Source of the DNA: a virus
Taxonomy: Duplodnaviria > Heunggongvirae > Uroviricota > Caudoviricetes
Virus record (IMG/VR): IMGVR_UViG_2859821903_000003
Location: 1 to 58,025 of that record
Direction: 5' to 3' (one strand)
Length of the DNA stretch: 58,025 bases
Below, in pieces: positions 1 to 15,995 of this stretch (its first letter is position 1; every line of letters starts with the position of its first letter). The position numbers and the translations under genes were made by a program. The notes under the pieces were generated by a model. The model was given only the letters and a program-made list of their open reading frames with translations, searched no databases and was not told where the DNA came from.

Positions 1-1461
1 ATGAAAAAATTACTGCGTCTTTTTTTCCCGCTCTCGCTGCGGGTACGTTTTCTGTTGGCAACCGCTGCGGTAGTACTGGTGCTTTCGCTTGCCTACGGAA
101 TGGTCGCGCTGATCGGTTATAGCGTCAGTTTCGATAAAACTACGTTTCGGCTGTTACGTGGCGAGAGCAATCTGTTCTATACCCTTGCGAAGTGGGAAAA
201 CAATAAGTTGCATGTCGAGTTACCCGAAAATATCGACAAGCAAAGCCCCACCATGACGCTAATTTATGATGAGAACGGGCAGCTTTTATGGGCGCAACGT
301 GACGTGCCCTGGCTGATGAAGATGATCCAGCCTGACTGGCTGAAATCGAATGGTTTTCATGAAATTGAAGCGGATGTTAACGATACCAGCCTCTTGCTGA
401 GTGGAGATCATTCGATACAGCAACAGTTGCAGGAAGTGCGGGAAGATGATGACGACGCGGAGATGACCCACTCGGTGGCAGTAAACGTCTACCCGGCAAC
501 ATCGCGGATGCCAAAATTAACCATTGTGGTGGTGGATACCATTCCGGTGGAGCTAAAAAGTTCCTATATGGTCTGGAGCTGGTTTATCTATGTGCTCTCA
601 GCCAATCTGCTGTTAGTGATCCCGCTGCTGTGGGTCGCCGCCTGGTGGAGTTTACGCCCCATCGAAGCCCTGGCAAAAGAAGTCCGCGAACTGGAAGAAC
701 ATAACCGCGAATTGCTCAATCCAGCCACAACGCGAGAACTGACCAGTCTGGTACGAAACCTGAACCGATTGTTAAAAAGTGAACGCGAACGTTACGACAA
801 ATACCGTACGACGCTCACCGACCTGACCCATAGTCTGAAAACGCCACTGGCGGTGCTGCAAAGTACGCTGCGTTCTCTGCGTAGTGAAAAGATGAGCGTC
901 AGTGATGCTGAGCCGGTAATGCTGGAGCAAATCAGCCGCATTTCACAGCAAATTGGCTACTACCTGCATCGTGCCAGTATGCGCGGCGGGACATTGCTCA
1001 GCCGCGAGCTGCATCCGGTCGCCCCACTGCTGGACAATCTCACCTCAGCGCTGAACAAAGTGTATCAACGCAAAGGGGTCAATATCTCTCTCGATATTTC
1101 GCCAGAGATCAGCTTTGTCGGTGAGCAGAACGATTTTGTCGAGGTGATGGGCAACGTGCTGGATAATGCCTGTAAATATTGCCTCGAGTTTGTCGAAATT
1201 TCTGCAAGGCAAACCGACGAGCATCTCTATATTGTGGTCGAGGATGATGGCCCCGGTATTCCATTAAGCAAGCGAGAGGTCATTTTCGACCGTGGTCAAC
1301 GGGTTGATACTTTACGCCCTGGGCAAGGTGTAGGGCTGGCGGTAGCCCGCGAAATCACCGAGCAATATGAGGGTAAAATCGTCGCCGGAGAGAGCATGCT
1401 GGGCGGTGCGCGGATGGAGGTGATTTTTGGTCGCCAGCATTCTGCGCCGAAAGATGAATAA
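1..1461 (+). CDS. phoQ: Sensor histidine kinase PhoQ (complete, 486 aa)
   Basis: Full-length translation matches E. coli PhoQ from memory ([19 protein letters not shown]..., HAMP, histidine kinase and ATPase motifs). Confidence 0.95.
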
Positions 1462-2195
1462 ATATGTCCTTTTATCACCATATCAAGACAAACCATTGAT
1501 TTAATTAAATAATCTGCACTGAAAAAAGTGCCAAAAATCGCAAATTGACTACACCATTAACTACACCGTTCGGTGCACCGTATGAAACAACGTGGAACAA
1601 ATAGACACAAGAAATATACAGGCGGATCATCTTTCCAGGGGAAGCGCACCAATTCATGAGGGGCGTTAATGTCTATATGGGGATCCCCACCTACCGGAAT
1701 TTTTTTCCGGTTAAACGTTAATCAGGCTGGTGGGCTTTACCTGTTCGGTAGGTGTTATGATTATCGTAATACCTTTCCCCAATGGGGTAAAAGCATCAAC
1801 CGTAACGAAAGTCGTTATGGTTGCCACTGATACCCCCAATTTGGGTATCACGAGTAAGCCCCAAAATCTGGGTGTTACTCTTACTACCCAAACTACGGGT
1901 AGTTTCCGTAGTTTCATGGTCGAGTTGCAGATCTGCAACTCCCCCATTAACCACAGGCGAATTTCCGCCTTCGGTCATTCCTTAATCATCTGCGTAATCA
2001 TAATGATTATTCAGCAAGCGCAATTTTGCGCTTTGCTTAAAGTTCAGCGAGTTACCGCGCCGACTTCCTCAAATTGAGGTTTCCGAAAATATCAGCGGGT
2101 TAGCGATTAAGCTGATCATTAATTAAACTGCGAAAATGTCGTAGTTGTGAGGGGTGTAGCCAACCCATTTTTGGGCCGTCGGGAATATCAACCAG

Positions 2196-2477
2196 TTACC
2201 GCCGCAACCGCTCCGGCTTCTTCCAGTGGTACGTTATTTTCTCCTTCTCCCGATACATCTCCACGCGGCGACGGTAGGCCTGCAACTCAAGAACTCTGGT
2301 TCGTATGTTGCGCATATCCACGCCATTAAGTTCTATACCATCACGGCGCATCACCTCAGCAACAACACGCGCATAGTTTTCGGCTGTCACGCTGTCCGGC
2401 TGCGTGGCCTGTTCGTCAGCCTGCTGGCTGATTCCGGCAACGCGGCGGATTAATCCCGTTATTTCGGCTTCTGTCAT
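2196..2477 (-). CDS. Hypothetical protein (93 aa), last gene of packaging operon
   Basis: ORF directly downstream of TerL on the same strand; no recognisable motif. Confidence 0.35.
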   Translation of the reverse strand: MTEAEITGLIRRVAGISQQADEQATQPDSVTAENYARVVAEVMRRDGIELNGVDMRNIRTRVLELQAYRRRVEMYREKEKITYHWKKPERLRR

Positions 2478-2490
2478 GCTGCTGACCTCA

Positions 2491-4152
2491 TTACACCCCG
2501 CTAAATTCTTCCAGTTTCTGGCGGTGGCTGTCGCTTATATCAAAAGCAAAATCCTCATGCTCTGCCTGGAATGTACCAAACGCCATCAGCGCCGCCACGC
2601 TCGGGTCTATCTTGTTCGGTGATTTTTTCTTGTTCGGCTTGATATTGGCGTTCGCGTCACTCTGCATCACGACGTTACTCATCGACCAGGACAACACCGG
2701 ATCGCCACGATGCACAATCACCCTGCGGTTAACAAAAACTTCGAACGATTTCGCCGCCGGACTTAATCTGAGGTAGGTTTGCGGGAACGGCTCCACCTCA
2801 AAACCTGCCCCCTGTAATTGCGTTCTGAGATGCGTGGCGTTCCACGTATCAAAGCCCACCAGCCTGATATTAAATTTCTCCGCGTCCTGCATGATGTCAT
2901 CTCTGATCCGGTCGTAATCAATGCAGTCGCCAGGCGTTGTGCGTATCCAGCCTGCTTTAGCCCACTGACGATAGATGGCGCGGTTTTTATTGGCGGGGTT
3001 CTGTAGCTGGAACTCCGGCAGATAATGACGGGAAACCAGCATAATGGTTTTACCTACCGGAAAGGCATAGCACACGCTGGAAATATCGCTTGTGGATGAT
3101 AAATCCAGCCCCGCGTAACACTCCTAGCCGTGTAAATCTTCCTCCGTGAACGTTCCGGCACACTCAGCCCATGCGCCGTTACCCATCCACGGGGTAGTCC
3201 CCTGACACCAGATATTAAATCGCTTTGTCATCATCTCCACCCACTGCGACGGAATACCCCGCGCTTTCTGGATGGTTGAGGCCAGTTTTTCACGATCCAC
3301 GGAAACATCAATATTAGGGTTCGCCTTTATCCACATCGCCGGATCATCAACCTCGTTTTCGTCGTCCAGTTCGTAAATCAGTACAAAAATTGAATCGTTA
3401 ACCTCTTCGCCGTCCAGGATCTGGCAGCAATAATCATAGTGCTGCTTACAGGCTGAAACGACGTTGCTGCCTGATGTGGTAATGGCAAATAACAGCCCTT
3501 CGGGACGTGCGCCCATCCCCAGCTCAAGCGCGGAATAAACGCCGTTATCGGGGTGCAAGTGGTATTCGTCCACGATGGAAAGGCTGGGGTTTGTTCCCTC
3601 GATGGTTGCCGCTTTTGCTGCCAGCGGCTTTAACAGGCTGTTGCTTTTCGGGTGTATCACCTTATGCGCCTGAATATTCACCCGCCTGCGTAACGGTCGG
3701 GATAAAAGGCACATCTGACGCGCATCATCAAAGACGATCCGCGCCTGGTCACGGCTCACCGCTGCGGTGTAGATATCCTGCTGACCGTTCTCCATAATCA
3801 GAAACCAGTTAGCCAGAATCGCGGCGGTCGTTGATTTCGCATTTTTGCGCGGCACTTCGATAAAGGCGCTCGTATATTTGCGCCGTCCGGTGGCCTTAAC
3901 CTTAAAGCCGAGGATGCACGCAAAGGCGAACTGCTGCCACGGCTCCAGCTCAATGGGTCTGCCACGCATCGGCCCTTTTACGTGCGGGCACACCCTGGAA
4001 AAGGCAATAAACCGATCCACAACCTCACGATCGAACGTGTAAAGGGGGCTTTTAAGGTCTGAAAAGTACCGTTTAACGGCCTGTTTCAGCCGTTTACAGG
4101 CCGGAATTTTGCCCGTTTTTACGTCTTCTGCGTACTTATTCCAGGCGGTCAA
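2491..4152 (-). pseudogene. Terminase large subunit, interrupted by in-frame amber (TAG) at 3124-3126
   Basis: ORF 3124-4152 is the terminase ATPase-like N-terminal part and ORF 2491-3075 the nuclease-like C-terminal part; both are in the same frame, separated only by one TAG. Confidence 0.75.
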
Positions 4153-4492
4153 GCTCGTCCTCTTCTTCTGTTTCCGGTGGATTTTTACGGCGGCTTATCG
4201 GGTCAAAACCGAGCAAGGAGGCCATTTTTATCATCACTCTTTCCGCGTCGGATTTCGCGCTTAATGTGGGGTTTCTGCTCTCTCCGCCCTGACTGTTAAC
4301 AATGCTGAACCCGCGCGCCGCAAGGTCTGCGACGGCTTTCCGGTATATCGAGTAATTGACGCAATACAGTTCCAGATTGCTCCAGTCGGCGGGAGTCAGG
4401 TCACCCCGTTCCGCAAGCTGCCGCGATTTTTCCCGCCACTGCTTCACGGCGATATCATCCAGGTAGGCGGGGGCTTTCGGTGGTCTTGCCAT
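4136..4492 (-). CDS. Terminase small subunit (P27-family-like)
   Basis: 118 aa ORF overlapping the TerL start, located after the HNH gene; typical HNH-TerS-TerL arrangement. Confidence 0.65.
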   Translation of the reverse strand: MARPPKAPAYLDDIAVKQWREKSRQLAERGDLTPADWSNLELYCVNYSIYRKAVADLAARGFSIVNSQGGESRNPTLSAKSDAERVMIKMASLLGFDPISRRKNPPETEEEDELDRLE

Positions 4493-4781
4493 GCTTATTT
4501 TTTCGCCAGATTATTTTTCAAAAAATTCCCGTGCATAAAAATTTGAGGAGGCGGTCGGTGCCCGGCGGGGTCGGGTTTGTCCTGAAAACGCCCCCCACCC
4601 CGTCATACAGCCTCATCAGCGATTGCGGAAACATTCCATAACCTCGCGGTCACGGTCGGTTAATCGCTTCGCTGTGATGCGTTCTGCGCGTCCTGACGCT
4701 TTATCTTTATGCCCTGTTTCCTGTGTCTTCCATGCGTCACGCTGCCTTATAAGTCCACGGATAAGGCGGTTTTGTTCCCGC

Positions 4782-5222
4782 TCATTCATCAGCGTCATAC
4801 ATCCAGTTATTGCGGTTAGCGGCCCGTTCTTCCTCTTCACGAAATCCACCTGCGGCACGCTTACTTTTTGTTGCCGGATCAAGCCATTTCGTTTTCTGGT
4901 TATGGCACGCCTGACACAATGGTTGATGGTTCCATTCGGGCCAGAAGAGAACATCATCACCGCCATTAATCGGGATAATGTGATCCACCACCACGGCGGG
5001 CGTATATATCCCCTTCTCAAGGCATCGCACGCATAACGGGTTTTTACTCAGATACATGGCGCGGTATTTGTCCCACTGTCTGGAGTACCCACGCGCGCGG
5101 CGGTGTCCTCGTCTGGCATCCTCTGCACGCCATGCCGCCCGCCTGTGCTCCTCACACTTGCCGGACTTCACGCGCCTGTTACAGCCTGGTTCTGTGCATC
5201 GTCTTAATGGTTGCCACGGCAT
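4782..5222 (-). CDS. Phage-associated HNH endonuclease
   Basis: Motif DHIIPINGG...NHQPLCQACHNQKT; position next to the terminase genes as in cos-packaging phages. Confidence 0.75.
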   Translation of the reverse strand: MPWQPLRRCTEPGCNRRVKSGKCEEHRRAAWRAEDARRGHRRARGYSRQWDKYRAMYLSKNPLCVRCLEKGIYTPAVVVDHIIPINGGDDVLFWPEWNHQPLCQACHNQKTKWLDPATKSKRAAGGFREEEERAANRNNWMYDADE

Positions 5223-5518
5223 CAGTACACCCCCACATCACGGTAAGCCGTCCAGAGTACACCAATCGTCATGGGTACGCGTGTTTTTGCGTTATCCGCG
5301 ACAATCTGGCGATTTTCATACAGGTGAGCGATAAACATCATGCAGCCAATCTTTATGGCTGGCGTGAACTCCAGCCCGTCATCAAAGCGCCTGCCTATGT
5401 GTATCTGGCACGCCTCAAGCGATGCGGCAATGTATCCGCTGATTAACTGGTCTTCCTCGTCGCCATCGATGCGGCAATGGAGTTTCACTTCTTCCAGGGT
5501 GATAAGTTCTTCTGTCAT
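5222..5518 (-). CDS. Head-tail connector / DNA-packaging protein (gp6-like)
   Basis: 98 aa ORF in conserved position after the head-closure gene; translationally coupled. Confidence 0.45.
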   Translation of the reverse strand: MTEELITLEEVKLHCRIDGDEEDQLISGYIAASLEACQIHIGRRFDDGLEFTPAIKIGCMMFIAHLYENRQIVADNAKTRVPMTIGVLWTAYRDVGVY

Positions 5519-5895
5519 TTTTCCGCGCCCTCACGACAAAGAATTTCAAGGCGTGTCCTGGCGGCATCCGGCAGCGGCTGCCCGATGATATTCAGTACAC
5601 GCCCCGCCAGCGGCCCCGTATTGACCTTTATCCGGCTGGTGGCGTTGATGTCCTTCCTGTAGCGTATCCATACCCTTACCGTTCCAGTCGCCAGTTCTGC
5701 ACCCGATGAAATGGCCTCCTTGCTGCTGATCATGTTCACGCTTGCCCAGAGTGTGTGACCGTCCACCCACGTTTCGAGTATTTCGCCCGTCATGGCTCTG
5801 GTCTGTTTCAGGGTCTGAATCGTTACCCTGTCACGCAGTCGCCCTATGTTCATTCCGGTTTTTCTCCCTCGCTGATTTTTACTTCCTGTTTCCAT
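5515..5895 (-). CDS. Head closure / head-tail adaptor protein
   Basis: 126 aa ORF between portal and connector genes; family assignment by position and size. Confidence 0.45.
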   Translation of the reverse strand: METGSKNQRGRKTGMNIGRLRDRVTIQTLKQTRAMTGEILETWVDGHTLWASVNMISSKEAISSGAELATGTVRVWIRYRKDINATSRIKVNTGPLAGRVLNIIGQPLPDAARTRLEILCREGAEK

Positions 5896-7059
5896 GCCTG
5901 GCTGAACTCATCACCACCATCACGCGGGGACAGCCCTTCACGTTCGCGGGCTTCGTTCGGGCACATAACGCCGGATTTGATGCCGCGTTCATAGGTGGCA
6001 AAGCGTTCGCCAGGTGTGGCCCGTAACAGGTCCGCGCTGTCAAACTCCACCTGATACCGGATACCAGGTACAGGCGAGGCCACCAGCAGGGCGTTTTTTA
6101 TCTGCTTCTCAAAGTTCGCCAGCCACGGGCGCATCGTCATGGTGAGAAATGCGCGGCTTGCCTCGCTGAAATTGCTGTAGGTGCTGTTGCTGTATTCCTG
6201 CAAAAAAATCGGCGAGACGTTGAACATTCGGGCGATGTCTTCAATGGTGAAGCGACGGGAGGCCAGCCATTCAGCATCCTGATTACTCATGCCCAGCTGC
6301 TGATAGCTCATACCCCCTTCAAGGATGGGCGTTTTTCCGGCGTTTCTGGCCCCTTTGTAGCGTTCCAGCGCGGCTAATGCCTGTTTGCCCTTCACGCCGT
6401 CCAGCCATTCGCCTGACGTGATAACCCCTGCCGCCATCATGCCATCACGCATCACGCTCGCGCCGTGGCGTTGTTGGGCCAGCCCAAGCCCCAGCGATTC
6501 GCGGCAGATGGTTACAGGTGAGCGCCCCATAAAACCGTCATCCGTGGAGTAACGAAGGTGGAGAACCTCCCACGGTAAATAGTTGCGGGTGTTTCCGGTG
6601 TAGGCGTCAGTGATGCAGTAGCGCCAGTTATGCTCACCTGTCTGCTCAACGTTCACCGACTGCGGCGGGTAAGGATGCAAAGCGACCGGAAAACCATCAC
6701 GCCCCCACTGAATCACCGCATAAGCATTACCGTTTAACAGGCAGTGGCGGATCATCATTCGCTTAAACTGGTAGGGGGTTTGCCATGCGTTCGGGCGCTC
6801 GTTGAGGATGTGATCGACCGGATGAGAATCAAGCCACTCGCGGGCCTCCTTCCCCTTCTCATTGCGTACCAGGTACAGGTAACACGGCATGGTAGCCACC
6901 GCCTCAGAGATGACCGTCACGGCGTTCATGACGGCGGGCAGTGATTCCGCTGTCCCCGATGATACGTACTCACCCGCCCCGTGTTCGATGTGCCAGCCAG
7001 CGCCATAAACTCATCAAGCGTCATGCTGCGCTGCTCTTTTTTTCTTCTGAAAGGCCACA
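5850..7059 (-). pseudogene. HK97-family portal protein, probable frameshift near the 5' end
   Basis: ATG at 7059 is coupled to the protease stop and reads MWPFRRKKEQRSMTLDEF... for about 44 codons, then stops; the 359 aa portal-like body (6929 down to 5850) continues in another frame. Confidence 0.55.
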
Positions 7060-7061
7060 TA

Positions 7062-7634
7062 TCACACCCCCGCTAAATCCGCCCACCAGCGGCGATTATC
7101 CGCACGCGGCATTTTTTCGGGGTGCTGCTCATACAGGGAACGGCGGGCCAGCTCCACGTCGGAATCAGGGTAAGCCGGTACGGATGTAACGGTAATTTCG
7201 TACAGTTCCGCCACCAGCACGGTGCGCACGCATGGATCTGTTGTGGTATCCCATACATCCTTACGGGAACGAAAGCCAAAGCTCATGCCGGATATATCAC
7301 CTCGTTTAACCAGTTCGATAACGTCGCGCCCTGTACTGGTATCCGGTGGGGTCAGTTCAAAGCGTAACCCTGTTTCGTCCTCTTCCAGTTTCAGCGTGCC
7401 GGAACGGGTGCGCCCCAGTAACATGCTGTGGTCATGCTCATACAGGCCGCGAACGTCATTACCCGCCGCAAGCCATTCAGTAAACGCCCCCCGCTGGAAT
7501 TTTTCGTAAAACTCACCCCATAACAGTTCTGAAAGCTTATCCCAGCGAACAATGTAGCCCGTCAGCGTACCGGCTCCGCTGGTGGTGATTTCCGATGACC
7601 GGATTTCCATACTCTTCATAATTTTTTCACCCAT
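7062..7634 (-). CDS. Prohead maturation protease (HK97 family)
   Basis: 190 aa ORF between capsid and portal genes; size and position typical of S78-type prohead protease. Confidence 0.7.
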   Translation of the reverse strand: MGEKIMKSMEIRSSEITTSGAGTLTGYIVRWDKLSELLWGEFYEKFQRGAFTEWLAAGNDVRGLYEHDHSMLLGRTRSGTLKLEEDETGLRFELTPPDTSTGRDVIELVKRGDISGMSFGFRSRKDVWDTTTDPCVRTVLVAELYEITVTSVPAYPDSDVELARRSLYEQHPEKMPRADNRRWWADLAGV

Positions 7635-7672
7635 AAAACACTAAAGGGGCTTTTAAGCCCTTCTGTATGCTA

Positions 7673-8830
7673 TTAATCGTCGTCCTGTGGCAGTTCCAGA
7701 ATCTTGATCGCGTTCGAATCCACCACGCCACCGCCTAAATATTTCTGCGCGAAAATTTTGATGAAGCCCGGCTCTGTGAGGTTGTCCGGTCTGGTGCGAA
7801 CACCTGTTTCGTGATCAACAATGTAGTAACCGCGTTTGAAGTCACCCAGGGCAATAACGTTATCCGGCATAAACTCCAGATATTCGACCGGAAGGCCCAG
7901 CAACGTATCAGGATCACCCGCCTGTAAACGGTCACGCCAGATGTAATCACCGTTCGCGTTCTTCACCTTCTGGAGTTTTGCCTCCGTCGTGGAGTTAACC
8001 ACCCAGACCGCGTTTTTGCGGTATTTTTTACGTAATGCAAATTTCAGGTCGATCAGCGGGTCCGCAGATGTCCACGCCAGAGATTCGGAAGGTTTAATTA
8101 CCTGCAACGTACCAAAATCACGCTCTTTGTCGTTCTTCTCTGCACGGGGTACGGATAAAAAGCCTTTTGCTTTTTTGTCACCGTCGCCCACAACCAGATC
8201 GCTTTCTTCGGTTTCCGTGAAGGTGTCGCCAATCTCGCCCGTCAGCCATGAAAGGATGTCCACATCGGAAAAATCCACGATTTCCTGCGTGGTGCGCGGG
8301 TACGCATAGACCGGATACAGCTTAATGCTCACCTCGTTAATCTGCGGGGTGCTGGTCTGTTCGCGTGCCTTACCCTCTTCACCGTGGTTAACGGTCGCAC
8401 CGCCAGCGGAAACAAGCTGCTTAAACTCGTTGCTGCTGATTTTCTTCACGGTACAGATGCGGCGCATGGTGGATTCATCCGTCAGCATTCGCATGATTTC
8501 GGTGTTCAGTTCGGGGATAACGGTATAACCACCATCAGCGGGAACGCCTGTACTCAATGCGCGGGTTTCACCTGTCAGAATGTAGTGACGTAGTTCGGCG
8601 GGGTCAGTGGTCTGGCTGTTTTTGCCTGGTTTACTGCGCTCTTCGTCAGCAACGGCCTCAAGGCGGGAGATGTCTTTATCGAGTGATTCAGCTTTAGCGC
8701 GTAATTCGTCAAATTTTGCGCCCTCAGCATCGTTAAGGCTGCGGTTTTCTTTTTCCGCGTTCTCCAGCATGTCGCGCATCTGATTTTTAATGGCGGTTTT
8801 CTGCTGGCGTAATTCGATTATTCTCGGCAT
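7673..8830 (-). CDS. Major capsid protein (HK97 fold family); start probably MPRIIELRQQ
   Basis: About 385 aa with N-terminal coiled-coil delta domain then capsid-like body; first gene of the head operon. Confidence 0.75.
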   Translation of the reverse strand: MPRIIELRQQKTAIKNQMRDMLENAEKENRSLNDAEGAKFDELRAKAESLDKDISRLEAVADEERSKPGKNSQTTDPAELRHYILTGETRALSTGVPADGGYTVIPELNTEIMRMLTDESTMRRICTVKKISSNEFKQLVSAGGATVNHGEEGKAREQTSTPQINEVSIKLYPVYAYPRTTQEIVDFSDVDILSWLTGEIGDTFTETEESDLVVGDGDKKAKGFLSVPRAEKNDKERDFGTLQVIKPSESLAWTSADPLIDLKFALRKKYRKNAVWVVNSTTEAKLQKVKNANGDYIWRDRLQAGDPDTLLGLPVEYLEFMPDNVIALGDFKRGYYIVDHETGVRTRPDNLTEPGFIKIFAQKYLGGGVVDSNAIKILELPQDDD

Positions 8831-9042
8831 AAAAAAAGTCCTGCAGTTAAGTAAGGAACTCCAGGACGCGGCAAACACTCAACCGTTTTTCATAAGGAAA
8901 TCAGCAATCGCACCGATCGTTTTCCCGCCTGGTAATGAATATTGGCGAGCACATTAACAGGCGGGAAAGTGGCCCCAGCGTCCTGGCACCACGGGCGAGA
9001 ATAATCATGATTCAGTTCGGGTAAAATATGCCGATCCGGTCA

Positions 9043-9072
9043 GCGAACAACGTGGAACAACCACGAACAAAT
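9043..9072 (-). promoter_or_regulatory. Array of 10-bp-phased TTGTTC hexamers upstream of the capsid operon
   Basis: Minus-strand reading TTGTTCGTGGTTGTTCCACGTTGTTC; related arrays at 1584-1611, 14425-14478 and 15811-15838. Confidence 0.45.
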
Positions 9073-9117
9073 AATTTACAAAACATGACAAAAAGCCGGA
9101 TTGCTCCGGCTGTGTGA

Positions 9118-9399
9118 TTATCTGTCCTGGTAATTTCGCCATATTTCATCACCAGCACCATCCATACCCATTTCGGCATAAGTGCGATCGACCGCCTTTT
9201 TCAGGTCTCCGTAATTATCCGGCGGCTCCGGTGGCCTCTGTGCCTTCCTGGAACATTCCAGCCGTCGCATCGTGATGTGATGCCGTTCCTTGTCTGTCTC
9301 CACCAGTTGCATGACTTCACCCCATCGCGCCGACGCTCTCCGGTAAAAGCCTTTCGCCTCCAGTTCTTCCGCTATGCGGTCATGTACCATCGTCCCCAC
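9118..9399 (-). CDS. PerC-family-like transcriptional regulator (tentative)
   Basis: 93 aa; segment AEELEAKGFYRRASARWGEVM resembles the PerC/Pch family as I recall it; not verified. Confidence 0.4.
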   Translation of the reverse strand: MGTMVHDRIAEELEAKGFYRRASARWGEVMQLVETDKERHHITMRRLECSRKAQRPPEPPDNYGDLKKAVDRTYAEMGMDGAGDEIWRNYQDR

Positions 9400-9402
9400 C
9401 CC

Positions 9403-9813
9403 TCAGAACGGAATATCATCACCGTAAGGGTCATCGCCTCCCGCTGGTGGCTGATTACCCTGTGTGCCTGTGGTCTTGCGTCGGCTCCCACCAGGACGTG
9501 CCGCACGGGCACTGATTACGCTGTCTGCAATAACCTGATAACCCTGCCGCGTTTCCCCGTTCTGTCCGGTCCACTGGCTGACCTGCATCGTGCCGGATAC
9601 GCTGGCAACGTCGCCTTTTTGATGTTTAGCCAGGAAGTCGGCCTGCTTACCAAATGCGATGACCGATAGCCATAACGTCGCCTGTCCATCCTGAGCCTGG
9701 CTGCATGGCAGCGATACCGCCATACGCGCCAGCGTCATCGGTGTACCCTTGCTGGTCTGTTTTACCTGCGGGTCGTCCACCAGCCGCCCGTAAGCTGCAA
9801 TTTGTGCTGTCAT
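9403..9813 (-). CDS. ssb: Single-stranded DNA-binding protein
   Basis: OB-fold-like N-terminus, Gly/Pro-rich linker and acidic C-terminal tail ending DDIPF. Confidence 0.8.
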   Translation of the reverse strand: MTAQIAAYGRLVDDPQVKQTSKGTPMTLARMAVSLPCSQAQDGQATLWLSVIAFGKQADFLAKHQKGDVASVSGTMQVSQWTGQNGETRQGYQVIADSVISARAARPGGSRRKTTGTQGNQPPAGGDDPYGDDIPF

Positions 9814-9822
9814 ATTGCCACC

Positions 9823-10128
9823 TCAGTGAAGCGATCCGGCGTTGTTCTTTTTCATCTCTTCCATCATTTTTTCAGTGAGCATTACGCACTGAAAACCCAT
9901 GTTTTTGATGTCCACGGGCTTCATGCCTTTATCAGTGGATATCACAGGAAGAATATCCTGATACACATCGCGGTCAGGGTAACTAAGCACACAAAGCGCC
10001 CATGATGCCACGGGTGAGGATCCTTCGTCTGTTTCAACCCACCAGCCTGGTGTAGCTGCGCTTATTTGCTGAATCGTGATCCGTCCGTTGTGCTTGTAAA
10101 GTTTTTCACCAAATTTTGGTTCGCTCAT
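9823..10128 (-). CDS. Hypothetical island protein (101 aa)
   Basis: ORF in the replication-proximal operon; no motif recognised. Confidence 0.35.
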   Translation of the reverse strand: MSEPKFGEKLYKHNGRITIQQISAATPGWWVETDEGSSPVASWALCVLSYPDRDVYQDILPVISTDKGMKPVDIKNMGFQCVMLTEKMMEEMKKNNAGSLH

Positions 10129-10406
10129 GATTCCAACTCTCCGGTTTTAACGTTGATTGTTGTTACCTGTTCCGCTTCGGCAATCTCCCGTTCTGTCAGC
10201 GTGGCAAAGTTTGCCGCCGCCGTGGTCATGAATGCGCTTATCAGGTCGGGATGTTCCTTCGCGTATCCTTCCCGCGTGTGGCGGTCTATCGTTCTGATTG
10301 CCACCTTTAAGGTGTGCTCAGTCATGTCTAACGCTTTATATTTTGGCTCTGTTCTGTCTCTGCGTTTTTGGGTCATTTCTCGCAACCTCTCACTTTTTCG
10401 CCTCAC
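10125..10406 (-). CDS. Hypothetical island protein (start uncertain, possibly the internal Met at 10325)
   Basis: ORF whose 5' portion overlaps the iteron array. Confidence 0.3.
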   Translation of the reverse strand: MRRKSERLREMTQKRRDRTEPKYKALDMTEHTLKVAIRTIDRHTREGYAKEHPDLISAFMTTAAANFATLTEREIAEAEQVTTINVKTGELES

Positions 10407-10578
10407 TTTTTCAAGCGTCTCACTTCGTCGCAGTTGGGATTTTCGGTTTTTCTATGTGTATGTTTCATAAGTATTTTTTTACCCCTCACTTTTGAGGATG
10501 TATACAGGTCGAAAAGTGAGGGGGAGCGGGCTAATTTTGGCCCTCTTTCTATCCCCTCGCTTTTGCTCCTCACTTTTA
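10379..10578. repeat. Iteron array, CTCACTTTT-type repeats (at least 6 copies, one inverted); candidate island origin of replication
   Basis: Copies at 10379, 10393, 10410, 10486, 10570, a CTCGCTTTT variant at 10553 and an inverted copy at 10511-10524, immediately 3' of the replication gene. Confidence 0.5.
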
Positions 10579-11976: not shown

Positions 11977-12272
11977 TTCTTGCCCCTGAATCCGTTAATC
12001 ATGGTTTTCAGCTTCTGGATGTTTGCCCGTGCCCTGGCGTTGCTGGTGGGCACGTTATGCGGCGCGGTCTGTACCAGAGAAAAATCACGCCGGAACTGAT
12101 AAACAGGCATCACGCAATCATATTCGTAACCTTCACGGCGGTAGGTTACGCGCCGTTCTTCCACGCCCTTAATCATTACCGTGCCGCCGTAATGGTCGCG
12201 GTAAATATCACCGCGCGTAAATTTAGGGTGAGTGTTGCCACTGGCAGTTAAGCCAGAATATTTAAGTTTCAT
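11973..12272 (-). CDS. Hypothetical island protein (99 aa)
   Basis: ORF coupled to the replication gene start. Confidence 0.35.
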   Translation of the reverse strand: MKLKYSGLTASGNTHPKFTRGDIYRDHYGGTVMIKGVEERRVTYRREGYEYDCVMPVYQFRRDFSLVQTAPHNVPTSNARARANIQKLKTMINGFRGKK

Positions 12273-12277
12273 TATTT

Positions 12278-12523
12278 TTATTCTCCGGTGTGCTGTTCTT
12301 TATATCCGTCGTGCAATAGATCTATTTCTTGCAGTTCCATTATTACAGGCTCAAGAAGCGTTATTAATGCCGTGGCAATTCTTGATTTTTGTTTGTCGCG
12401 TTCATTGTCGCCAAGTGTTTCAAGCCATATGCGCAATATTTCCAGCATGTTTTCACTGTGAGAAAGTGCAAGAAATGCGCGGTCTATTGTTTCGTGGTAA
12501 ATATCACGCATATTAATCCCCAT
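12278..12523 (-). CDS. Hypothetical island protein (81 aa)
   Basis: ORF in the leftward early operon. Confidence 0.35.
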   Translation of the reverse strand: MGINMRDIYHETIDRAFLALSHSENMLEILRIWLETLGDNERDKQKSRIATALITLLEPVIMELQEIDLLHDGYKEQHTGE

Positions 12524-12725
12524 CCGTCGTTTTTCTTAAAATAACCTCTGTCACGAAATCAGCATAATCGGCGGCGATATTCAGTACATCAAGCCCGTTG
12601 ATTTATATTCTCTCGTGGAAAGTAAGAAAAAAGCCGCTCTAATAAGTTCTGGCATTGACGAAAGCGCATCAGCCGCACCATCAGGAACGCCGGAAAATTC
12701 CTGTTTCAGGGAATTAAAACGATCA

Positions 12726-12989
12726 TCACGCATAACCCCCCCCATTTTCACAATCGGCAACAAGAATATTTTTAGCGTCATTCAGTGACCGCGTTGCGAT
12801 GTATCGGATACATTCCAGGGCGAACTGTGTCCGGTCTTTCTGTTCTTCTCCCTGCGCAAGCTCTGCCGTGCATTCAATATCAATAAGCGCGTGCATCAGC
12901 GTAGTGAGCGCGGCGGCTGCTGCGTCCGGTGTGGTTTTATTGTGCATAGGTTTCTCCCTGGCGGATTTTTGCAGCGAATACAGCAACAC
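12726..12989 (-). CDS. Hypothetical island protein
   Basis: ORF in the leftward early operon; start uncertain. Confidence 0.25.
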   Translation of the reverse strand: MLLYSLQKSAREKPMHNKTTPDAAAAALTTLMHALIDIECTAELAQGEEQKDRTQFALECIRYIATRSLNDAKNILVADCENGGGYA

Positions 12990-13463: not shown

Positions 13464-13505
13464 AAACTATCAGCGCCGTGGTGTGAGGTATTACGGCGCA
13501 TTGCT

Positions 13506-13963: not shown

Positions 13964-14152
13964 TTAATGAACTGCCTTGCAGCTATCCTTCCAGGCCAGA
14001 ACCTCGGATAAAGACCAGCCAACGGAACGACCGCCAAGTTTACGACGTGATGGGAATTGTCCGGCCTTTTCCAGGCGGTAGCGACACGTACGGCTAAGGC
14101 CGGTTAGTTTTTCGCATTCTTTTTCACGTATAAACCGATCAGTGCTTAACAC
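13964..14152 (-). CDS. alpA: AlpA-family phage transcriptional regulator / excisionase-like protein
   Basis: 62 aa; LSRTCRYRLEKAGQFPSRRKLGGRSVGWSLSEVLAW matches the AlpA pattern; next to int. Confidence 0.75.
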   Translation of the reverse strand: MLSTDRFIREKECEKLTGLSRTCRYRLEKAGQFPSRRKLGGRSVGWSLSEVLAWKDSCKAVH

Positions 14153-14424
14153 TATTGCCCCCTTTCGTTTCTTAAAGAGTCATCAGGTGTCTTATTGTGT
14201 CGTATTGTTCCCGCTAGAGTGATGAATGGCAAATACTGAGGATGTATGATTTACAGAAAATGAAAAAGTAAGAATAAAATCTTTTAAATTCATGTTAATA
14301 CAAAGGCATAAAATATTGTTCCATGCCTTTTTTCTCGCTCTTTAAAGAGTGATTCGCTAGTGTATAAAAAACCAGTAACACATTAAAAATCAGCTACTTA
14401 TAAATCCGTACGCTTTTTCGCCTC

Positions 14425-14478
14425 TTGTTCGTAGTTGTTCCACATTGTTGCTCATTGTTGCACGTTGTATCTGTTCGC
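14425..14478 (+). promoter_or_regulatory. Array of five or more 10-bp-phased TTGTTC/TTGTTG hexamers between int and alpA
   Basis: TTGTTCGTAGTTGTTCCACATTGTTGCTCATTGTTGCACGTTGTAT in AT-rich intergenic DNA upstream of alpA. Confidence 0.45.
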
Positions 14479-14516: not shown

Positions 14517-15746
14517 TTATTTTCTTCTGGCTACTGGTAGCGTGGTTACGTTTTCATGTGTTCCCGCCAGTATCCCTAACCGCTCCGTCCACATATCCAG
14601 CGCATTGCGTTTCGCATCCAGATAACGGGAATGATTATAAACTCGCTGCATTCCTGGCATCTGGTGGCCTGTAAGCTGCTCCACGACATGCGGATCAACG
14701 CCTAAATCGTTCAGCATGGTTGTAAAGGTGCGCCGGATGTCATGCAGTGACCAGTGAGGGTGTTTAAGCCTCCTGTGCGCTAATCTGCCGTACTGCGACA
14801 CGCTGGTTTCCTGTTTCACTTCCCCCAGCAATAAGCCCGTGTGCCTGTTCTGCTCCACCAGCTGCGTGACGAACGGCATTATCGCTTCCGGTATGGGCCG
14901 GAATATGGCTACCTTCGTTTTGCTGTGCTCCTTCGGAACAGTCCAGAGCATTTCGGTAAAATCCCACTCGCCGATCTCCGATAACCTAAGTTCGACCGTC
15001 CGGCATCCGAACACAATCAGGAGGCGGATTAGCGCGATGTAGTAGGGGGAGAATATTTTTTTGTCCAGTGCCTGCAATAATTCGCCAAGTTCTTTGTTGC
15101 TTAAGACACGCTCGCTTATATCCGGTTTTTTCCCAACGTCCGCCACACTCATATCATCAAGAACGTTGCTGATTGCATAGCGCCGCTTCCGGCAGAACTT
15201 AAGCGCCTGCTTGCATGTCTGTAGCAGGAACCCGGCGGAAACAGGGGCTTGCTTTGCCACCCGATCAAAACAGGCCAGCCAGTGCCGTAGCTCGCATTTA
15301 TCCAGCGGCATAGGGCCAATGTGCTGTATTACGTGATTATTTAGCCGCTTTTTCAGTGGGTCATAATCCACACGGTTTTCCTTTGCGTACGACTCAAGCC
15401 AGTAGGTGAGCGCATCACCAACCGTTACCGGCTTTAACGCTTCCTGTACGGTGTAATTCATCTCATGACGTGGATTTTTCCCCTCAGCCAGCCATGCGCG
15501 ACACTGGGCGGCTTTTTCCCTGGCTGATTTCAGACTCAGATCAGGATAATTTCCCAGCTTAATGCGTTCCGGTGGTGCCCCCCTTCCCGTTCCGGCCCTG
15601 TAAGTGAAATACCAGGTCAATTTCCCTGATGTTAAATATTTCACGCTCAAGTTTCCGCCATCACTATAAAACGTGTTTTTCTCCGCTGGCTTACCATGAA
15701 GTTTCCTTAGCAAGGTATCGCTCAGTTTGTTCATTGCTCTGCTCAC
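14517..15746 (-). CDS. int: Tyrosine integrase, P4-type
   Basis: 409 aa; N-terminal arm-binding-like domain (KLSDTLLRKL...SDGGNLSVKY), catalytic HDIRRTF and LLGHQ...RVYNHSRY. Confidence 0.85.
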   Translation of the reverse strand: MSRAMNKLSDTLLRKLHGKPAEKNTFYSDGGNLSVKYLTSGKLTWYFTYRAGTGRGAPPERIKLGNYPDLSLKSAREKAAQCRAWLAEGKNPRHEMNYTVQEALKPVTVGDALTYWLESYAKENRVDYDPLKKRLNNHVIQHIGPMPLDKCELRHWLACFDRVAKQAPVSAGFLLQTCKQALKFCRKRRYAISNVLDDMSVADVGKKPDISERVLSNKELGELLQALDKKIFSPYYIALIRLLIVFGCRTVELRLSEIGEWDFTEMLWTVPKEHSKTKVAIFRPIPEAIMPFVTQLVEQNRHTGLLLGEVKQETSVSQYGRLAHRRLKHPHWSLHDIRRTFTTMLNDLGVDPHVVEQLTGHQMPGMQRVYNHSRYLDAKRNALDMWTERLGILAGTHENVTTLPVARRK

Positions 15747-15995
15747 GTTTTACCCCCTCTTTACGAAAAAGTGACTACACCAGTGACTACACCGATCGTT
15801 GCACAAAGGGCTACAACGTGAAACAAGCTGGAACAAGGAAAATCACAAATCTGTTGATAATCAAAAACATAATGCACAACCTGAAACATTATGAAACGGC
15901 AAAAAACACTAATTGATAAAATATGCCCATACTTCACGCATTACGTTAAGCATCCGTTATAATCGGTTGCAGATACCAGCCTGTGGATGCTTAAC

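What the first reader, a model, noticed from the sequence alone, without database searches (positions are those of the whole stretch)
1546..1612. Imperfect ~70 bp direct repeats define the probable island ends
TGACTACACCA plus a second ACTACACCG copy followed by the TTGTTC-type array occurs at 1546-1612 and again at 15772-15840, in the same orientation, just after phoQ and just before roxA. These probably contain the att core and integrase arm sites.
Basis: partly seen in the sequence, partly recalled or inferred. Interest (0 to 1): 0.45.

Follow-up and report, generated by a model that had tools for sequence, protein, structure and literature searches.

The report
Arm repeats of a satellite attachment site
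The two ~76-bp direct repeats are real, but they lie about 80 bp inside each end of a 14.5-kb phage-satellite island and are most likely where its integrase and a helper protein bind; the crossover point lies outside them, and the design is the ordinary phage-P4 type.

Summary
The repeat is confirmed: 1542-1617 and 15768-15843 match at 56 of 76 positions in direct orientation (chance expectation about 1e-9).

The repeats do not mark the island ends or hold the core. An empty K-12 site puts the junctions at a 7-bp overlap, 1463-1469 (TATGTCC) and 15922-15928 (TATGCCC). That is 82 bp outside the left repeat motif and 132 bp outside the right one.

The island is a 14,459-bp capsid-forming PICI at the phoQ/roxA site used by EcCICFT073. 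In the excised circle the two repeats flank the core; a circular metagenome contig shows this attP.

Each repeat has two parts:
- **Doubled 12-bp motif** (TGACTACACCnn twice). Its sequence follows the integrase N-terminal arm-binding domain, not AlpA. It keeps the same 82/132 spacing at four attB sites. Phage P4's annotated attP arm repeats and the HE-PICI doubled motif have the same layout. I read these as integrase arm-type sites.
- **GAACAA array at 10-bp spacing.** It recurs next to alpA and upstream of the capsid operon. I read it as operators for the AlpA excisionase/activator, but this is unproven and some evidence conflicts.

Verdict: ordinary, a new member of a known kind.

The parts
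1455..1477 (+). attL core: host half-site B TGAATAAA (1455-1462, overlapping the phoQ stop at 1459-1461), 7-bp overlap TATGTCC (1463-1469), island half-site C' TTTTATCA (1470-1477). The left junction of the island lies here.
   Evidence: Empty-site alignment with K-12 BW25113. C' is a perfect inverted repeat of C (TGATAAAA) at the other end. In three islands with the same arms at other attB sites, the attL/attR identity block starts at or overlaps the end of C and covers the 7-bp overlap that follows C. Coordinates.
1489..1513 (-). IHF-like site in the P' arm: AATCAATGGTTTG (matches WATCAANNNNTTR) on the minus strand, with an adjoining A/T tract. It lies +23 to +47 from the overlap centre.
   Evidence: Read directly from the sequence. 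The ATTGAT...TTAATTAA block is conserved in the phoQ/roxA, tqsA and allC/allE islands and is more divergent in the cspD/clpS and rcnR/thiM islands. It is a consensus match only; binding is inferred.
1542..1617 (+). P' arm copy of the 76-nt module. Doubled 12-bp motif TGACTACACCAT|TAACTACACCGT (1546-1569), a degenerate third unit TCGGTGCACCGT (1570-1581), then the array AAACAAcgtgGAACAAatagACACAA at 10-bp spacing (1585-1612).
   Evidence: The doubled motif starts 82 bp from the overlap centre in all five islands measured, which use four attB sites. The conserved columns are shown.
9045..9091 (+). Internal GAACAA array of 3-5 units at 10-bp spacing. It lies just after the perC terminator and about 170-190 bp upstream of the major capsid gene (7673..8878, minus strand).
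   Evidence: It is present in the cf-PICIs L002, L003, L004 and L048, and partly in L313. It was not detected at the >=3-unit threshold in five of the six ~11-kb non-capsid PICIs scanned whole; L057 was not covered over the late region.
13964..14152 (-). alpA: a 62-aa AlpA-family winged-helix protein, the candidate recombination directionality factor and activator.
   Evidence: Pfam PF05930, E = 5e-17. The DNA is 88% identical to EcCICFT073 alpA, which is required for induction and activates its own promoter.
14195..14210 (-). Two ACAA-type units (GAACAATACGACACAA) overlapping the -10 of the best sigma-70-like match upstream of alpA.
   Evidence: This is a weak feature: two units only, and the promoter match is no better than shuffled sequence gives.
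14425..14468 (-). Array of 5-6 GAACAA-type units at 10-bp spacing, immediately 3' of int and about 270-320 bp upstream of alpA. It is inverted relative to the arm arrays.
   Evidence: (I1, I2, I8). It is conserved in islands with the same AlpA type. Islands with a 68%-identical AlpA have a RAATATC array at this position instead.
14517..15746 (-). int: a tyrosine integrase with an N-terminal arm-binding domain. It reads away from the right junction.
   Evidence: Pfam Arm-DNA-bind_3 (residues 8-95, E = 7e-18), Phage_int_M, Phage_integrase. Residues 8-95 match PDB 3jtz/3rmp, a CP4-like integrase N-domain. Residues 119-200 differ according to the attB used.
15768..15843 (+). P arm copy of the 76-nt module, starting 22 bp upstream of the int start codon. 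Doubled motif TGACTACACCAG|TGACTACACCGA (15772-15795), degenerate third unit TCGTTGCACAAA (15796-15807), then the array ACAAcgtgAAACAAgctgGAACAA (15809-15840).
   Evidence: The near end of the doubled motif is 131-132 bp from the overlap centre in five islands.
15864..15913 (+). Core-proximal part of the P arm. AAACA-type units in 10-bp phase (15866; 15885, 15895, 15905) and an IHF-like sequence with one mismatch (TTGATAATCAAAAACATA, from about 15852).
   Evidence: The corresponding stretch in other islands carries GAACAC or GAACAA units in 10-bp phase. This is a weak feature.
15914..15936 (+). attR core: island half-site C TGATAAAA (15914-15921), overlap TATGCCC (15922-15928), host half-site B' ATACTTCA (15929-15936). 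The right junction of the island lies here.
   Evidence: FORC_042 and CFT073 have TATGTCC at both junctions, while this window keeps the host C at position 5 of attR. That is the pattern expected if exchange spans this 7-bp overlap.

Best explanation
The two 76-nt direct repeats are the P' arm (left) and P arm (right) protein-binding modules of the attachment site of a 14,459-bp capsid-forming PICI. The island is integrated between phoQ and roxA by a P4-type heterobivalent tyrosine integrase.

Strand exchange happens about 80-130 bp outside the repeats, in a 7-bp overlap (TATGYCC) flanked by the core half-sites TGATAAAA and TTTTATCA. After excision the two modules sit 233 bp apart start to start, on either side of the core. 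The order is: int start, doubled motif, GAACAA array, IHF-like site, core, IHF-like site, doubled motif, GAACAA array.

Each module has two parts.
1. A doubled 12-bp unit (TGACTACACCnn twice, with a weak third copy). I take these four strong half-sites to be the arm-type sites bound by the N-terminal domains of the integrase tetramer. The catalytic and core-binding domains hold the core, so the arms are bridged to the core. The P-arm copy lies between the int start codon and any possible int promoter, so its occupancy should also lower int expression.
2. Three or four GAACAA units one helical turn apart. I take these to be operators for a cooperatively binding, DNA-bending accessory protein, most probably the island's AlpA. 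The same kind of array lies 3' of int, upstream of alpA, at the alpA -10, and upstream of the capsid operon. One protein could therefore couple excision to activation of the island.

Shown here: the repeats, the junctions, the attP arrangement, the fixed geometry, and the covariation of the doubled motif with the integrase N-domain. Inferred: every protein-DNA contact. The assignment of the array to AlpA is the weakest step; taken alone I put it at about 0.4.
For: **Junctions.**
- The empty K-12 site gives them directly.
- The same arms are joined to three other host sites (tqsA, allC/allE, cspD/clpS), with the attL/attR identity block starting at or overlapping the end of the conserved TGATAAA(A) and covering the 7 bp that follow it.
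- A circular 10,979-bp metagenome contig (L016, 119-bp terminal overlap) carries exactly the attP predicted by joining attR and attL.
- EcCICFT073 has the same attB, Int, AlpA and arms. It excises and circularises, and its int-attP segment alone integrates (PMC6092414).

**Integrase.** It has an arm-binding domain. Differences between islands at different attB sites cluster in residues 119-200, the core-binding region.

**Geometry.** The doubled motif is 82 bp from the centre on the P' side and 131-132 bp on the P side in 5 of 5 islands at 4 sites.

**Covariation of the doubled motif.**
- L314 and L312/L313 have near-identical AlpA (72 of 74 residues) but different Int N-domains (hairpin NLSVRHSTNGL vs GLEIKHSKGGK). 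Their doubled motifs differ, ACTACACC vs ACCACACA, in both arms.
- The window and L190 differ in AlpA (68% identity) but share the Int hairpin type and the ACTACACC motif.
- Within the clade, hairpin KYLTSGK goes with GTGAC flanks (P arm 8/8, P' arm 7/8). Hairpin RHSTSGL goes with TTAAC (P arm 11/11, plus one RHSTNGL island with TTAAC/TTGAC; second half-site of the P' arm 10/10).
- HE-PICIs (Int 41-45% identical) have GCAATACA twice at 81-82 and 135 bp. The published values are 81+-2 and 132+-2 (PMC10111431).
- The phage P4 record annotates 'attP arm sequence repeat' as co-oriented tandem 12-bp pairs on both sides of the core. One pair is 16 bp upstream of int.

**Arrays.**
- They are island-specific and statistically enriched.
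- They keep roughly one-turn register with the doubled motif. The L190 P' arm lacks exactly the 12-bp third unit.
- RDF operators are typically direct repeats one helical turn apart, found both at att and at promoters; Apl has 5 at attP and 7 at pR-pL (PMC7498355).
- P4 Vis, an AlpA homologue, binds the P4 attP region (PMC2603039).
- HE-PICIs have a different AlpA recognition helix and no GAACAA arrays.
Against: - No binding data exist for any of these sites.
- Int and the P arm are physically adjacent, and the P' arm is 230 bp away in the circular form. The within-clade covariation of hairpin and flank could therefore be linkage or shared descent rather than co-adaptation. The window itself is the exception: a type-1 Int with a type-2 P' arm.
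- The covariation across clades rests on few independent lineages.
- Against AlpA as the array binder:
  - Islands with AlpA types B and C keep GAACAA arrays in both arms, although the array 3' of int there is RAATATC.
  - The arrays are equally constant across two Int N-domain types, so they track neither protein.
  - In EcCICFT073, AlpA had no effect on a Pint fusion (PMC6092414), although the P-arm array lies where an int promoter must be.
  - RDF sites on both arms are unusual. In lambda and P4 they are on the int-proximal arm only (from my own knowledge).
- The promoter scans are no better than shuffled sequence. The IHF sites are consensus matches only.
Confidence: 0.72

Rival explanations
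1. One reading: the ~70-bp repeats are the duplicated att sequence itself. They would mark the island ends and contain the crossover core.
For: They are direct repeats near both ends of an integrase-bearing insertion. That is what an att duplication usually looks like.
Against: The empty site shows that island DNA extends 82 bp to the left of the left motif and 132 bp to the right of the right motif. The true shared block is AAATATG. The same repeats flank cores of unrelated sequence at three other attB sites. The circular contig has both copies in one attP, with the core between them.
Confidence: 0.02
2. The doubled ACTACACC motif is bound by AlpA or another island protein rather than by the integrase arm domain. 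The authors who described the HE-PICI doubled motif left this alternative open.
For: PMC10111431 names AlpA or an unknown protein as possible binders. int and alpA are always adjacent, so most comparisons cannot separate them.
Against: With AlpA held almost constant (72 of 74 residues), the motif changes together with the Int N-domain. With AlpA changed to 68% identity, the motif stays the same. The motif is not found at the alpA promoter or any other internal regulatory place. Four strong half-sites fit one per protomer of an integrase tetramer. P4 has the same layout, annotated as attP arm repeats.
Confidence: 0.1
3. The GAACAA arrays in the arms are not AlpA operators. They could be bound by a host protein (for example a response regulator that reads 10-bp direct repeats, or a nucleoid protein), or serve as extra integrase arm sites, or act as phased bendable DNA. 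The internal arrays would then be a separate matter.
For: The arm arrays stay the same across two AlpA types and two Int N-domain types in one host species. In AlpA-B/C islands the array 3' of int changes to RAATATC while the arm arrays do not. AlpA did not affect Pint in EcCICFT073.
Against: In the window's family the arm arrays share a 14-mer (ACAACGTGGAACAA) with the arrays next to alpA and the capsid operon, exactly in the P' arm and with one mismatch in the P arm. RDFs have relaxed specificity, and AlpA types A and B share the RTxRY...LGGRSVGW residues. HE-PICIs live in the same host with a different AlpA helix and lack the arrays. If Int bound the arrays, they should have changed along with the doubled motif in L312/L313.
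Confidence: 0.4
4. The repeats are iterons of the island's replication origin, or packaging (cos) signals.
For: Short phased direct repeats resemble iterons; the P4 ori and crr use TGTTCACC-type octamers. The left copy lies next to a long conserved non-coding stretch before the terminase genes.
Against: Identical arms and arrays occur with two unrelated replicases, the RepA-type helicase in the window and the primase type in E118, AST240 and CFT073. They also occur with three different packaging modules. The PICI ori is reported downstream of pri. The position of the repeats is fixed relative to the crossover, not relative to rep or ter genes.
Confidence: 0.03
5. The repeats are the terminal repeats of a transposon (Tn7-like ends with multiple transposase sites).
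For: There are arrays of short repeats near both ends of an insertion.
Against: The copies are direct, not inverted. There is no transposase, only a tyrosine integrase. The target shows no duplication, only a shared 7-bp overlap. The repeats are 80-130 bp from the ends. A circular attP form exists.
Confidence: 0.01

Closest known systems
Phage P4 attP ('attP arm sequence repeats', annotated in NC_001609; Pierson & Kahn 1987 from my own knowledge)
   Same: The integrase has an Arm-DNA-bind_3 N-domain and reads away from att. Tandem pairs of 12-bp units, co-oriented, lie on both sides of the core, and the int-proximal pair is just upstream of the int start (16 bp in P4, 26 bp here). An AlpA-family protein (Vis) binds the attP region.
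   Different: The unit sequence differs: (A/G)TGCCCCC in P4, ACTACACC here. Distances to the core are about 64 and 122 bp in P4, against 82 and 132 here. P4 integrates in a tRNA-Leu gene (from my own knowledge), whereas this element integrates in an intergenic site at the phoQ stop codon. In P4 I saw no second array distal to the P' pair.
HE-PICI 'doubled motif' tgTGTATTGCantgTGTATTGCa (Mageeney et al. 2023, PMC10111431)
   Same: Two co-oriented copies of an 8-mer doubled at a 12-bp period. One lies 81+-2 bp and the other 132+-2 bp from the attP centre; here the distances are 82 and 131-132. The element type is the same (a Gram-negative PICI with int-alpA).
   Different: The 8-mer is different. 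Int is only 41-45% identical and AlpA 52-58%. The HE-PICI arms have no GAACAA arrays. The authors reported their motif as unique to HE-PICIs and left the binder open.
EcCICFT073, the prototype Gram-negative PICI (Fillol-Salom et al. 2018, PMC6092414)
   Same: It has the same attB (roxA/phoQ), the same overlap TATGTCC, a closely related Int (409 aa, N-terminal domain of the second allele type) and AlpA (DNA 88% identical), and the same arm modules and array 3' of int. Integration, excision, and AlpA-dependent induction were shown experimentally.
   Different: The cargo differs. EcCICFT073 carries a capsid/decoration/Rpp-type late region and a primase. This island carries a full HK97-like head and terminase module and a RepA-type helicase. 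No paper I could read describes the arm motifs.
Lambda attP (P1, P2, P'1-3 arm sites; Xis X1-X1.5-X2; IHF H1, H2, H')
   Same: The logic is the same heterobivalent one. Arm sites differ from core sites and lie on both sides of a 7-bp overlap. An IHF-like site sits at about +25 to +45. Phased direct repeats lie between the distal P-arm site and the core (established knowledge; PMC7498355).
   Different: The lambda Int N-domain belongs to a different Pfam family. The number and orientation of the arm sites differ. Lambda has Xis sites on the P arm only, whereas here the array is duplicated on both arms.
Dual-purpose RDF regulators: 186 Apl, P2 Cox, P4 Vis
   Same: Their operators are 3-7 direct repeats spaced one helical turn apart. 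They are found both at att and at promoters, with cooperative binding, bending, and relaxed specificity. This matches the distribution of GAACAA arrays at the arms, at alpA and at the capsid operon.
   Different: Binding of AlpA to these arrays has not been tested. AlpA here is reported as an activator, whereas Apl and Cox are mainly repressors. Arrays on both arms are not the known pattern.

Membership tests
attP of a heterobivalent (arm-binding) tyrosine integrase, lambda/P4 type | The integrase carries a separate N-terminal arm-type DNA-binding domain in addition to the core-binding and catalytic domains. | tested here: met
   Pfam Arm-DNA-bind_3 at residues 8-95 (E = 7e-18), Phage_int_M at 129-199, Phage_integrase at 214-375. 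Residues 8-95 match PDB 3jtz/3rmp.
attP of a heterobivalent (arm-binding) tyrosine integrase, lambda/P4 type | A consistent attB / attP / attL / attR set shares a short identity block in which exchange occurs. | tested here: met
   attB comes from K-12. attL and attR are in the window. attP is seen in the circular contig L016 for the sister tqsA type. There are four attB types, and in each the identity block covers the 7-bp overlap following the same conserved half-site.
attP of a heterobivalent (arm-binding) tyrosine integrase, lambda/P4 type | Inverted core-type half-sites flank a 6-8-bp overlap. | tested here: met
   TGATAAAA - TATGTCC - TTTTATCA is a perfect 8-bp inverted repeat around 7 bp in the reconstructed attP. 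C' is less symmetric in the tqsA and allC types.
attP of a heterobivalent (arm-binding) tyrosine integrase, lambda/P4 type | Repeated arm-type sequences, unlike the core sites, lie on both sides of the core at fixed distances. | tested here: met
   The doubled ACTACACC motif is at +82 and -132 in 5 of 5 islands at 4 attB sites.
attP of a heterobivalent (arm-binding) tyrosine integrase, lambda/P4 type | The integrase N-domain physically binds the arm repeats, and they are needed for recombination. | not testable with these tools
   The only evidence is covariation of the motif with the N-domain type while AlpA is held constant.
attP of a heterobivalent (arm-binding) tyrosine integrase, lambda/P4 type | Binding sites for a host bending protein (IHF) lie between the core and the arm sites. 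| tested here: inconclusive
   A WATCAANNNNTTR match with an A/T tract is at 1489-1513, and a one-mismatch match is in the P arm. These are consensus matches only.
P4-type attP arm repeats | Tandem pairs of 12-bp units, co-oriented, lie on both arms, with one pair directly upstream of int. | tested here: met
   The P4 record has pairs at 3942-3965 and 4151-4174 around the core at 4078-4097, with the int start at 3926. The window has pairs at 15772-15795 and 1546-1569, with the int start at 15746.
HE-PICI doubled motif (PMC10111431) | The motif sequence is TGTATTGC, doubled. | tested here: not met
   The 8-mer here is ACTACACC, so this is not a member of that motif family.
HE-PICI doubled motif (PMC10111431) | Two co-oriented copies lie 81+-2 and 132+-2 bp from the attP centre. 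| tested here: met
   The distances here are 82 and 131-132 bp. The same measurement on two HE-PICI loci gives 81-82 and 135 bp.
Gram-negative PICI / capsid-forming PICI | A 10-15-kb island with int, alpA and a replication module, no tail or lysis genes, at a site not used by prophages. For a cf-PICI, its own capsid, portal, protease, HNH, TerS and TerL genes as well. | tested here: met
   14,459 bp. The gene set follows from homology to the annotated FORC_042 island and from Pfam. The attB is the same as that of EcCICFT073. TerL and the portal gene carry disabling mutations in this copy.
RDF (excisionase) operator array | Three or more direct repeats are spaced one helical turn apart within an att arm. 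| tested here: met
   3-4 GAACAA-type units at 10-bp spacing in each arm. The criterion is taken from PMC7498355.
RDF (excisionase) operator array | The array is bound by the element's own RDF, and its sequence follows the RDF's specificity. | tested here: inconclusive
   The array 3' of int changes with the AlpA type, but the arm arrays do not.
Replication-origin iterons | The repeat sequence follows the initiator protein and lies next to the rep gene. | tested here: not met
   The same arrays occur with the RepA-type helicase and with primase-type replicases, and they lie at the island ends.
Transposon terminal repeats | The ends are inverted in orientation, and a transposase is present. | tested here: not met
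   The copies are direct, and no transposase gene is present.

The most novel reading that the evidence does not exclude
The GAACAA arrays are all operators of one protein, AlpA. AlpA would then bind both att arms (unusual for an excisionase), the region upstream of its own gene, and the capsid-operon control region. A single helper-phage-induced protein would physically couple excision, its own amplification, and capsid expression in cf-PICIs. More broadly, the paired '12-bp doubled motif at +82/-132' would be a rule for the attP of the PICI/P4-type integrases examined here, one that predicts integrase arm specificity from sequence.
Probability: 0.3. Interest if true: 0.5.

Novelty: new member of a known kind. 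Interest (0 to 1): 0.3.

Why it matters
The finding matters mainly as a correction. Direct repeats near the ends of an island are not necessarily the att duplication. Here they are internal arm modules, and the true core is a 7-bp overlap at the phoQ stop codon.

It also adds modestly to what is known. The 'doubled motif' reported as unique to helper-embedded PICIs turns out to be one instance of a general P4-type layout: 12-bp units, doubled, co-oriented, at about +82 and -132. A second PICI integrase clade uses the same layout with its own 8-mers, ACTACACC or ACCACACA.

This gives a simple way to find attP arms and to predict integrase arm specificity in satellite islands. It also nominates candidate AlpA operators, which no paper I could read has defined. 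None of this would surprise a specialist in site-specific recombination.

Tried and rejected
2. **Separating Int from AlpA using the 65 IMG/VR relatives of the integrase.** int and alpA are always linked there, and most contigs are cut at the int start, so the P arm is missing. The pairs that did separate them came from E. coli genomes chosen by alpA-only matches.
3. **Replication-iteron idea for the GAACAA arrays.** Rejected because the arrays are identical with two unrelated replicases.
4. **Promoter and terminator scans.** The counts are no better than shuffles. Only the perC terminator at 9094-9111 and a weak alpA promoter match were of any use.
5. **Rfam and tRNA scans of 1-17000.** Nothing was found. 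The attB is not a tRNA gene.
6. **Possible lambda-like cos site.** By eye, 1620-1730 resembled one, but blastn of 1612-1800 against 50,697 phage records found nothing. I make no claim.
7. **O157:H7 island at phoQ/roxA.** I first assumed it would be EcCIEDL933. The copy I fetched (L311) is a different, non-capsid-forming PICI with an IS3 next to int, so I do not equate them.
8. **Host response regulator (for example PhoP or TorR boxes) as reader of the arrays.** There is no evidence beyond the direct-repeat format. The same arms occur at sites far from phoPQ. I keep it only inside the 'other binder' rival.
Full report
**Observation.**
The pair 1542-1617 / 15768-15843 is the longest direct repeat in the first 20 kb: 76 nt without gaps, 56 matches. 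Over all position pairs of the window, the chance expectation of such a pair is about 1.5e-9. Identity drops to background immediately outside the 76 nt.

**What surrounds it.**
The 15.6-kb stretch matches E. coli chromosomes in two ways. Most genomes carry only the phoQ and roxA flanks joined directly. 172 of the 5,426 genomes carry an island like this one.

In strain FORC_042 the island is annotated with TerL, a P27-family TerS, an HNH endonuclease, head-tail connector, head closure protein, portal, HK97-type protease, major capsid protein, PerC, SSB, a RepA-type helicase, a small helix-turn-helix protein, and a tyrosine integrase. This is the gene set of a capsid-forming PICI (10.1101/2022.09.08.507074).

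Pfam assigns the 62-aa protein (13964..14152, minus strand) to Phage_AlpA. It assigns the integrase (14517..15746, minus strand) to Arm-DNA-bind_3 + Phage_int_M + Phage_integrase. Integrase residues 8-95 match the solved N-domain of a CP4-like integrase, 3jtz/3rmp.

**Where the ends really are.**
The uninterrupted K-12 site reads GATGAATAAATATGCCCATACTTCACGC. Aligned with the window:
- The left junction is ...TGAATAAA TATGTCC TTTTATCA... (1455-1477).
- The right junction is ...TGATAAAA TATGCCC ATACTTCA... (15914-15936).
- The block shared by the two junctions is AAATATG (1460-1466 and 15919-15925).

In the reconstructed attP, TGATAAAA and TTTTATCA form a perfect inverted repeat around 7 bp. 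This is the usual core-overlap-core form. FORC_042 and CFT073 have TATGTCC at both junctions. This window keeps the host C at the fifth overlap position of attR. That is what segregation of a heteroduplex formed across this overlap would leave.

The island is 14,459 bp. Both 76-nt repeats are inside it.

**Independent confirmation.**
Closely related islands with the same arm sequences sit at other host sites:
- inside tqsA (E118),
- between allC and allE (AST240),
- between cspD/yljB and clpS (APEC E18006, strain 9000, SCU-106)

. In each, host sequence is joined to the island within the 7 bp that follow the conserved TGATAAA(A). The overlaps are unrelated in sequence: TGCTGTT, GGGATAT, TAACTAT.

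The integrases of islands at different sites are 88-95% identical. Their differences cluster in residues 119-200, the core-binding region.

A metagenome viral contig (L016) has a 119-bp terminal overlap, so it is a 10,979-bp circle. It carries the tqsA-type attP exactly as predicted: both repeat modules are in one stretch, 233 bp apart start to start, with the core between them.

The experimentally studied PICI EcCICFT073 lies at the same roxA/phoQ site, with the same overlap, the same arm modules, and closely related Int and AlpA. Its spontaneous excision and circularisation, and the sufficiency of its int-attP segment for integration, are published (PMC6092414).

**Anatomy of the module.**
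Each copy holds two different elements.

1. The first is a 12-bp unit repeated in tandem. On the left it is TGACTACACCAT|TAACTACACCGT, and on the right TGACTACACCAG|TGACTACACCGA. A degenerate third unit follows.
2. The second, after a conserved gap, is three or four GAACAA-type units at 10-bp spacing.

The doubled motif starts 82 bp from the overlap centre on the P' side. Its near end is 131-132 bp from the centre on the P side. This holds in all five islands measured, at four attB sites.

Between the core and the P' motif lies a match to the IHF consensus with an A/T tract (1489-1513). The P arm has a one-mismatch match, plus further AAACA-type units in 10-bp phase next to the core. An alignment of 20 distinct P' arms and 13 P arms shows which parts are conserved: the doubled motif, the GAACAA units, and the core-adjacent ACACTAAnTGAnAA.

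**Who reads the doubled motif.**
Two natural swaps separate the integrase from AlpA.
- Strain 9000 (cspD/clpS site) and strains Z1323CEC0013 and SMS-3-5 (rcnR/thiM site) have AlpA proteins that are nearly identical (72 of 74 residues between strain 9000 and Z1323CEC0013). Their integrase N-domains differ: the beta-hairpin is NLSVRHSTNGL in the first and GLEIKHSKGGK in the others. The doubled motif is ACTACACC in the first and ACCACACA in the others, changed in both arms.
- Conversely, the window and APEC E18006 differ in AlpA (68% identity) but share the hairpin type and the ACTACACC motif.

Within the clade, the two hairpin alleles go with the flank of the unit.
- KYLTSGK goes with GTGAC: P arm 8/8, P' arm 7/8.
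- RHSTSGL goes with TTAAC: P arm 11/11, plus one RHSTNGL island with TTAAC/TTGAC; second half-site of the P' arm 10/10.

The single exception is this window, which looks like a recombinant. This within-clade association could be linkage, so I give it little weight.

More distant clades show the same layout with other 8-mers.
- HE-PICIs (Int 41-45% identical) have GCAATACA doubled at 81-82 and 135 bp. The published figures are 81+-2 and 132+-2 (PMC10111431).
- The phage P4 record annotates 'attP arm sequence repeat' as co-oriented tandem 12-bp pairs ((A/G)TGCCCCC) on both sides of the core. One pair is 16 bp upstream of int.

The doubled motif is therefore the P4-type arm repeat. The integrase N-domain is its most likely reader, with four half-sites for four protomers. 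Because the P-arm copy sits between the int start codon and any upstream promoter, its occupancy should also reduce int expression. Negative regulation of int by both Int and Vis is reported for P4 (title cited in PMC2603039).

**Who reads the GAACAA arrays.**
In the 58-kb window, chains of three or more ACAA units at 9-11-bp spacing occur only at four places, all in the island:
- the two arms,
- 14425-14468, inverted and just 3' of int,
- 9045-9091, after the perC terminator and upstream of the capsid operon.

A two-unit copy overlaps the putative alpA -10. The arrays share the 14-mer ACAACGTGGAACAA exactly (P' arm and 9045-9091) or with one mismatch (P arm and 14425-14468).

Direct repeats one helical turn apart, present both at att and at promoters, are the signature of dual-purpose excisionase-regulators such as Apl, Cox and Vis (PMC7498355; PMC2603039). 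AlpA of EcCICFT073 activates its own promoter and triggers excision. HE-PICIs have a different AlpA recognition helix and lack such arrays. I therefore favour AlpA.

The evidence is mixed, however.
- Islands with AlpA types B and C keep GAACAA arrays in their arms, while their array 3' of int reads RAATATC.
- The arm arrays are also unchanged when the integrase N-domain changes.
- AlpA did not alter a Pint fusion in EcCICFT073.
- Excisionase sites on both arms are not the usual pattern.

A host factor or another island protein remains a serious alternative. Replication iterons are excluded, because the arrays are identical with RepA-type and primase-type replicases.

**Comparison with what is known, and novelty.**
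The island type, its attB, and its integrase are known: EcCICFT073 for the site, cf-PICIs for the cargo. The layout of the arms is that of phage P4 and of the HE-PICI 'doubled motif'.

Three things here are not in the papers I could read:
- this integrase clade has its own doubled 8-mers at the same +82/-132 geometry,
- a second, phased GAACAA element is duplicated with the doubled motif and recurs at internal control regions.

This is a new member of a known kind. It is of modest interest to people who map island ends or study PICI induction, and it would not surprise specialists.

The module is common. It occurs in 945 of 5,426 complete E. coli genomes, typically twice per genome, and is never annotated.

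**Limits.**
All protein-DNA contacts are inferred. The cross-clade covariation rests on few independent lineages. The IHF and promoter assignments are consensus matches that do no better than shuffled sequence.

Noticed in passing
window 3124-3126 and about 6977-6981: This copy of the island has two disabling changes in packaging genes relative to the 99%-identical FORC_042 island. One is an in-frame stop in TerL (...EDLHG*ECYAG...). The other is a 1-nt deletion in a G-run (GGGG vs GGGGG) that shifts the portal reading frame after codon 28. The element is probably unable to package itself, unless these are sequencing errors.
   Followed up: partly
window 1546-1569 vs 15772-15795, and int residues 33-44: The window's island looks mosaic. 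Its integrase N-terminus and P arm are of the type found in tqsA-site islands (hairpin KYLTSGK, GTGAC flanks). Its P' arm (TTGAC/TTAAC) is the type found in FORC_042 and CFT073. It is the only mismatch among 18 islands tabulated.
   Followed up: partly
window 1467 vs 15926: The fifth base of the 7-bp overlap differs between the two junctions: T at attL and C at attR, with C in K-12 attB. FORC_042 and CFT073 have T at both. This fits segregation of a heteroduplex formed across the overlap during integration.
   Followed up: partly
L190 17289-17320 and L316 (3' of int): Islands with a diverged AlpA (68% identity) carry a different 10-bp-phased array, RAATATC repeated 3-4 times. It sits at the place where this window has GAACAA units, just downstream of int, while their att arms keep GAACAA arrays. 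No explanation so far accounts for both facts.
   Followed up: partly
L311 11786-12999 (E. coli O157:H7 YB14-1, phoQ/roxA site): In O157:H7 a different, non-capsid-forming PICI occupies the same attB. An IS3-family element is inserted immediately 5' of int, between int and its P arm. This should cut int off from its arm sites and promoter and immobilise the island.
   Followed up: no
window 1618-2195: A non-coding stretch of about 570 bp lies between the P' module and the first island ORF. Parts of it are conserved among PICIs with different cargo, for example GGGGCGTTAATGTC-ATATGGGGATCCCC and TTTTTCCGGTTAAA-GTTAATCAGGCTGGTGG. By eye it recalled a cos region. blastn against 50,697 phage records found nothing, and Rfam found nothing.
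   Followed up: partly
window 1721-1738, 2851-2868, 13702-13717: The sequence ATCAGGCTGGTGGGC occurs three times in the island: an 18-bp perfect inverted pair 1.1 kb apart, plus a third 16-bp copy near the other end (I16, D12). Related CTGGTGG strings appear in the same region of other PICIs. Their function is unknown.
   Followed up: no
L312/L313/L314 (between int and alpA): Some relatives carry an extra 257-284-aa ORF (DUF6387 in SMS-3-5) that overlaps the int stop codon. It takes the place of the long int-alpA intergenic region and its array.
   Followed up: no
L054/L056 ends: At least one further attB type, with unidentified host flanks and an overlap near ATCAC, uses the same arm modules. 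The cf-PICI paper likewise reports six attB sites for E. coli cf-PICIs.
   Followed up: no
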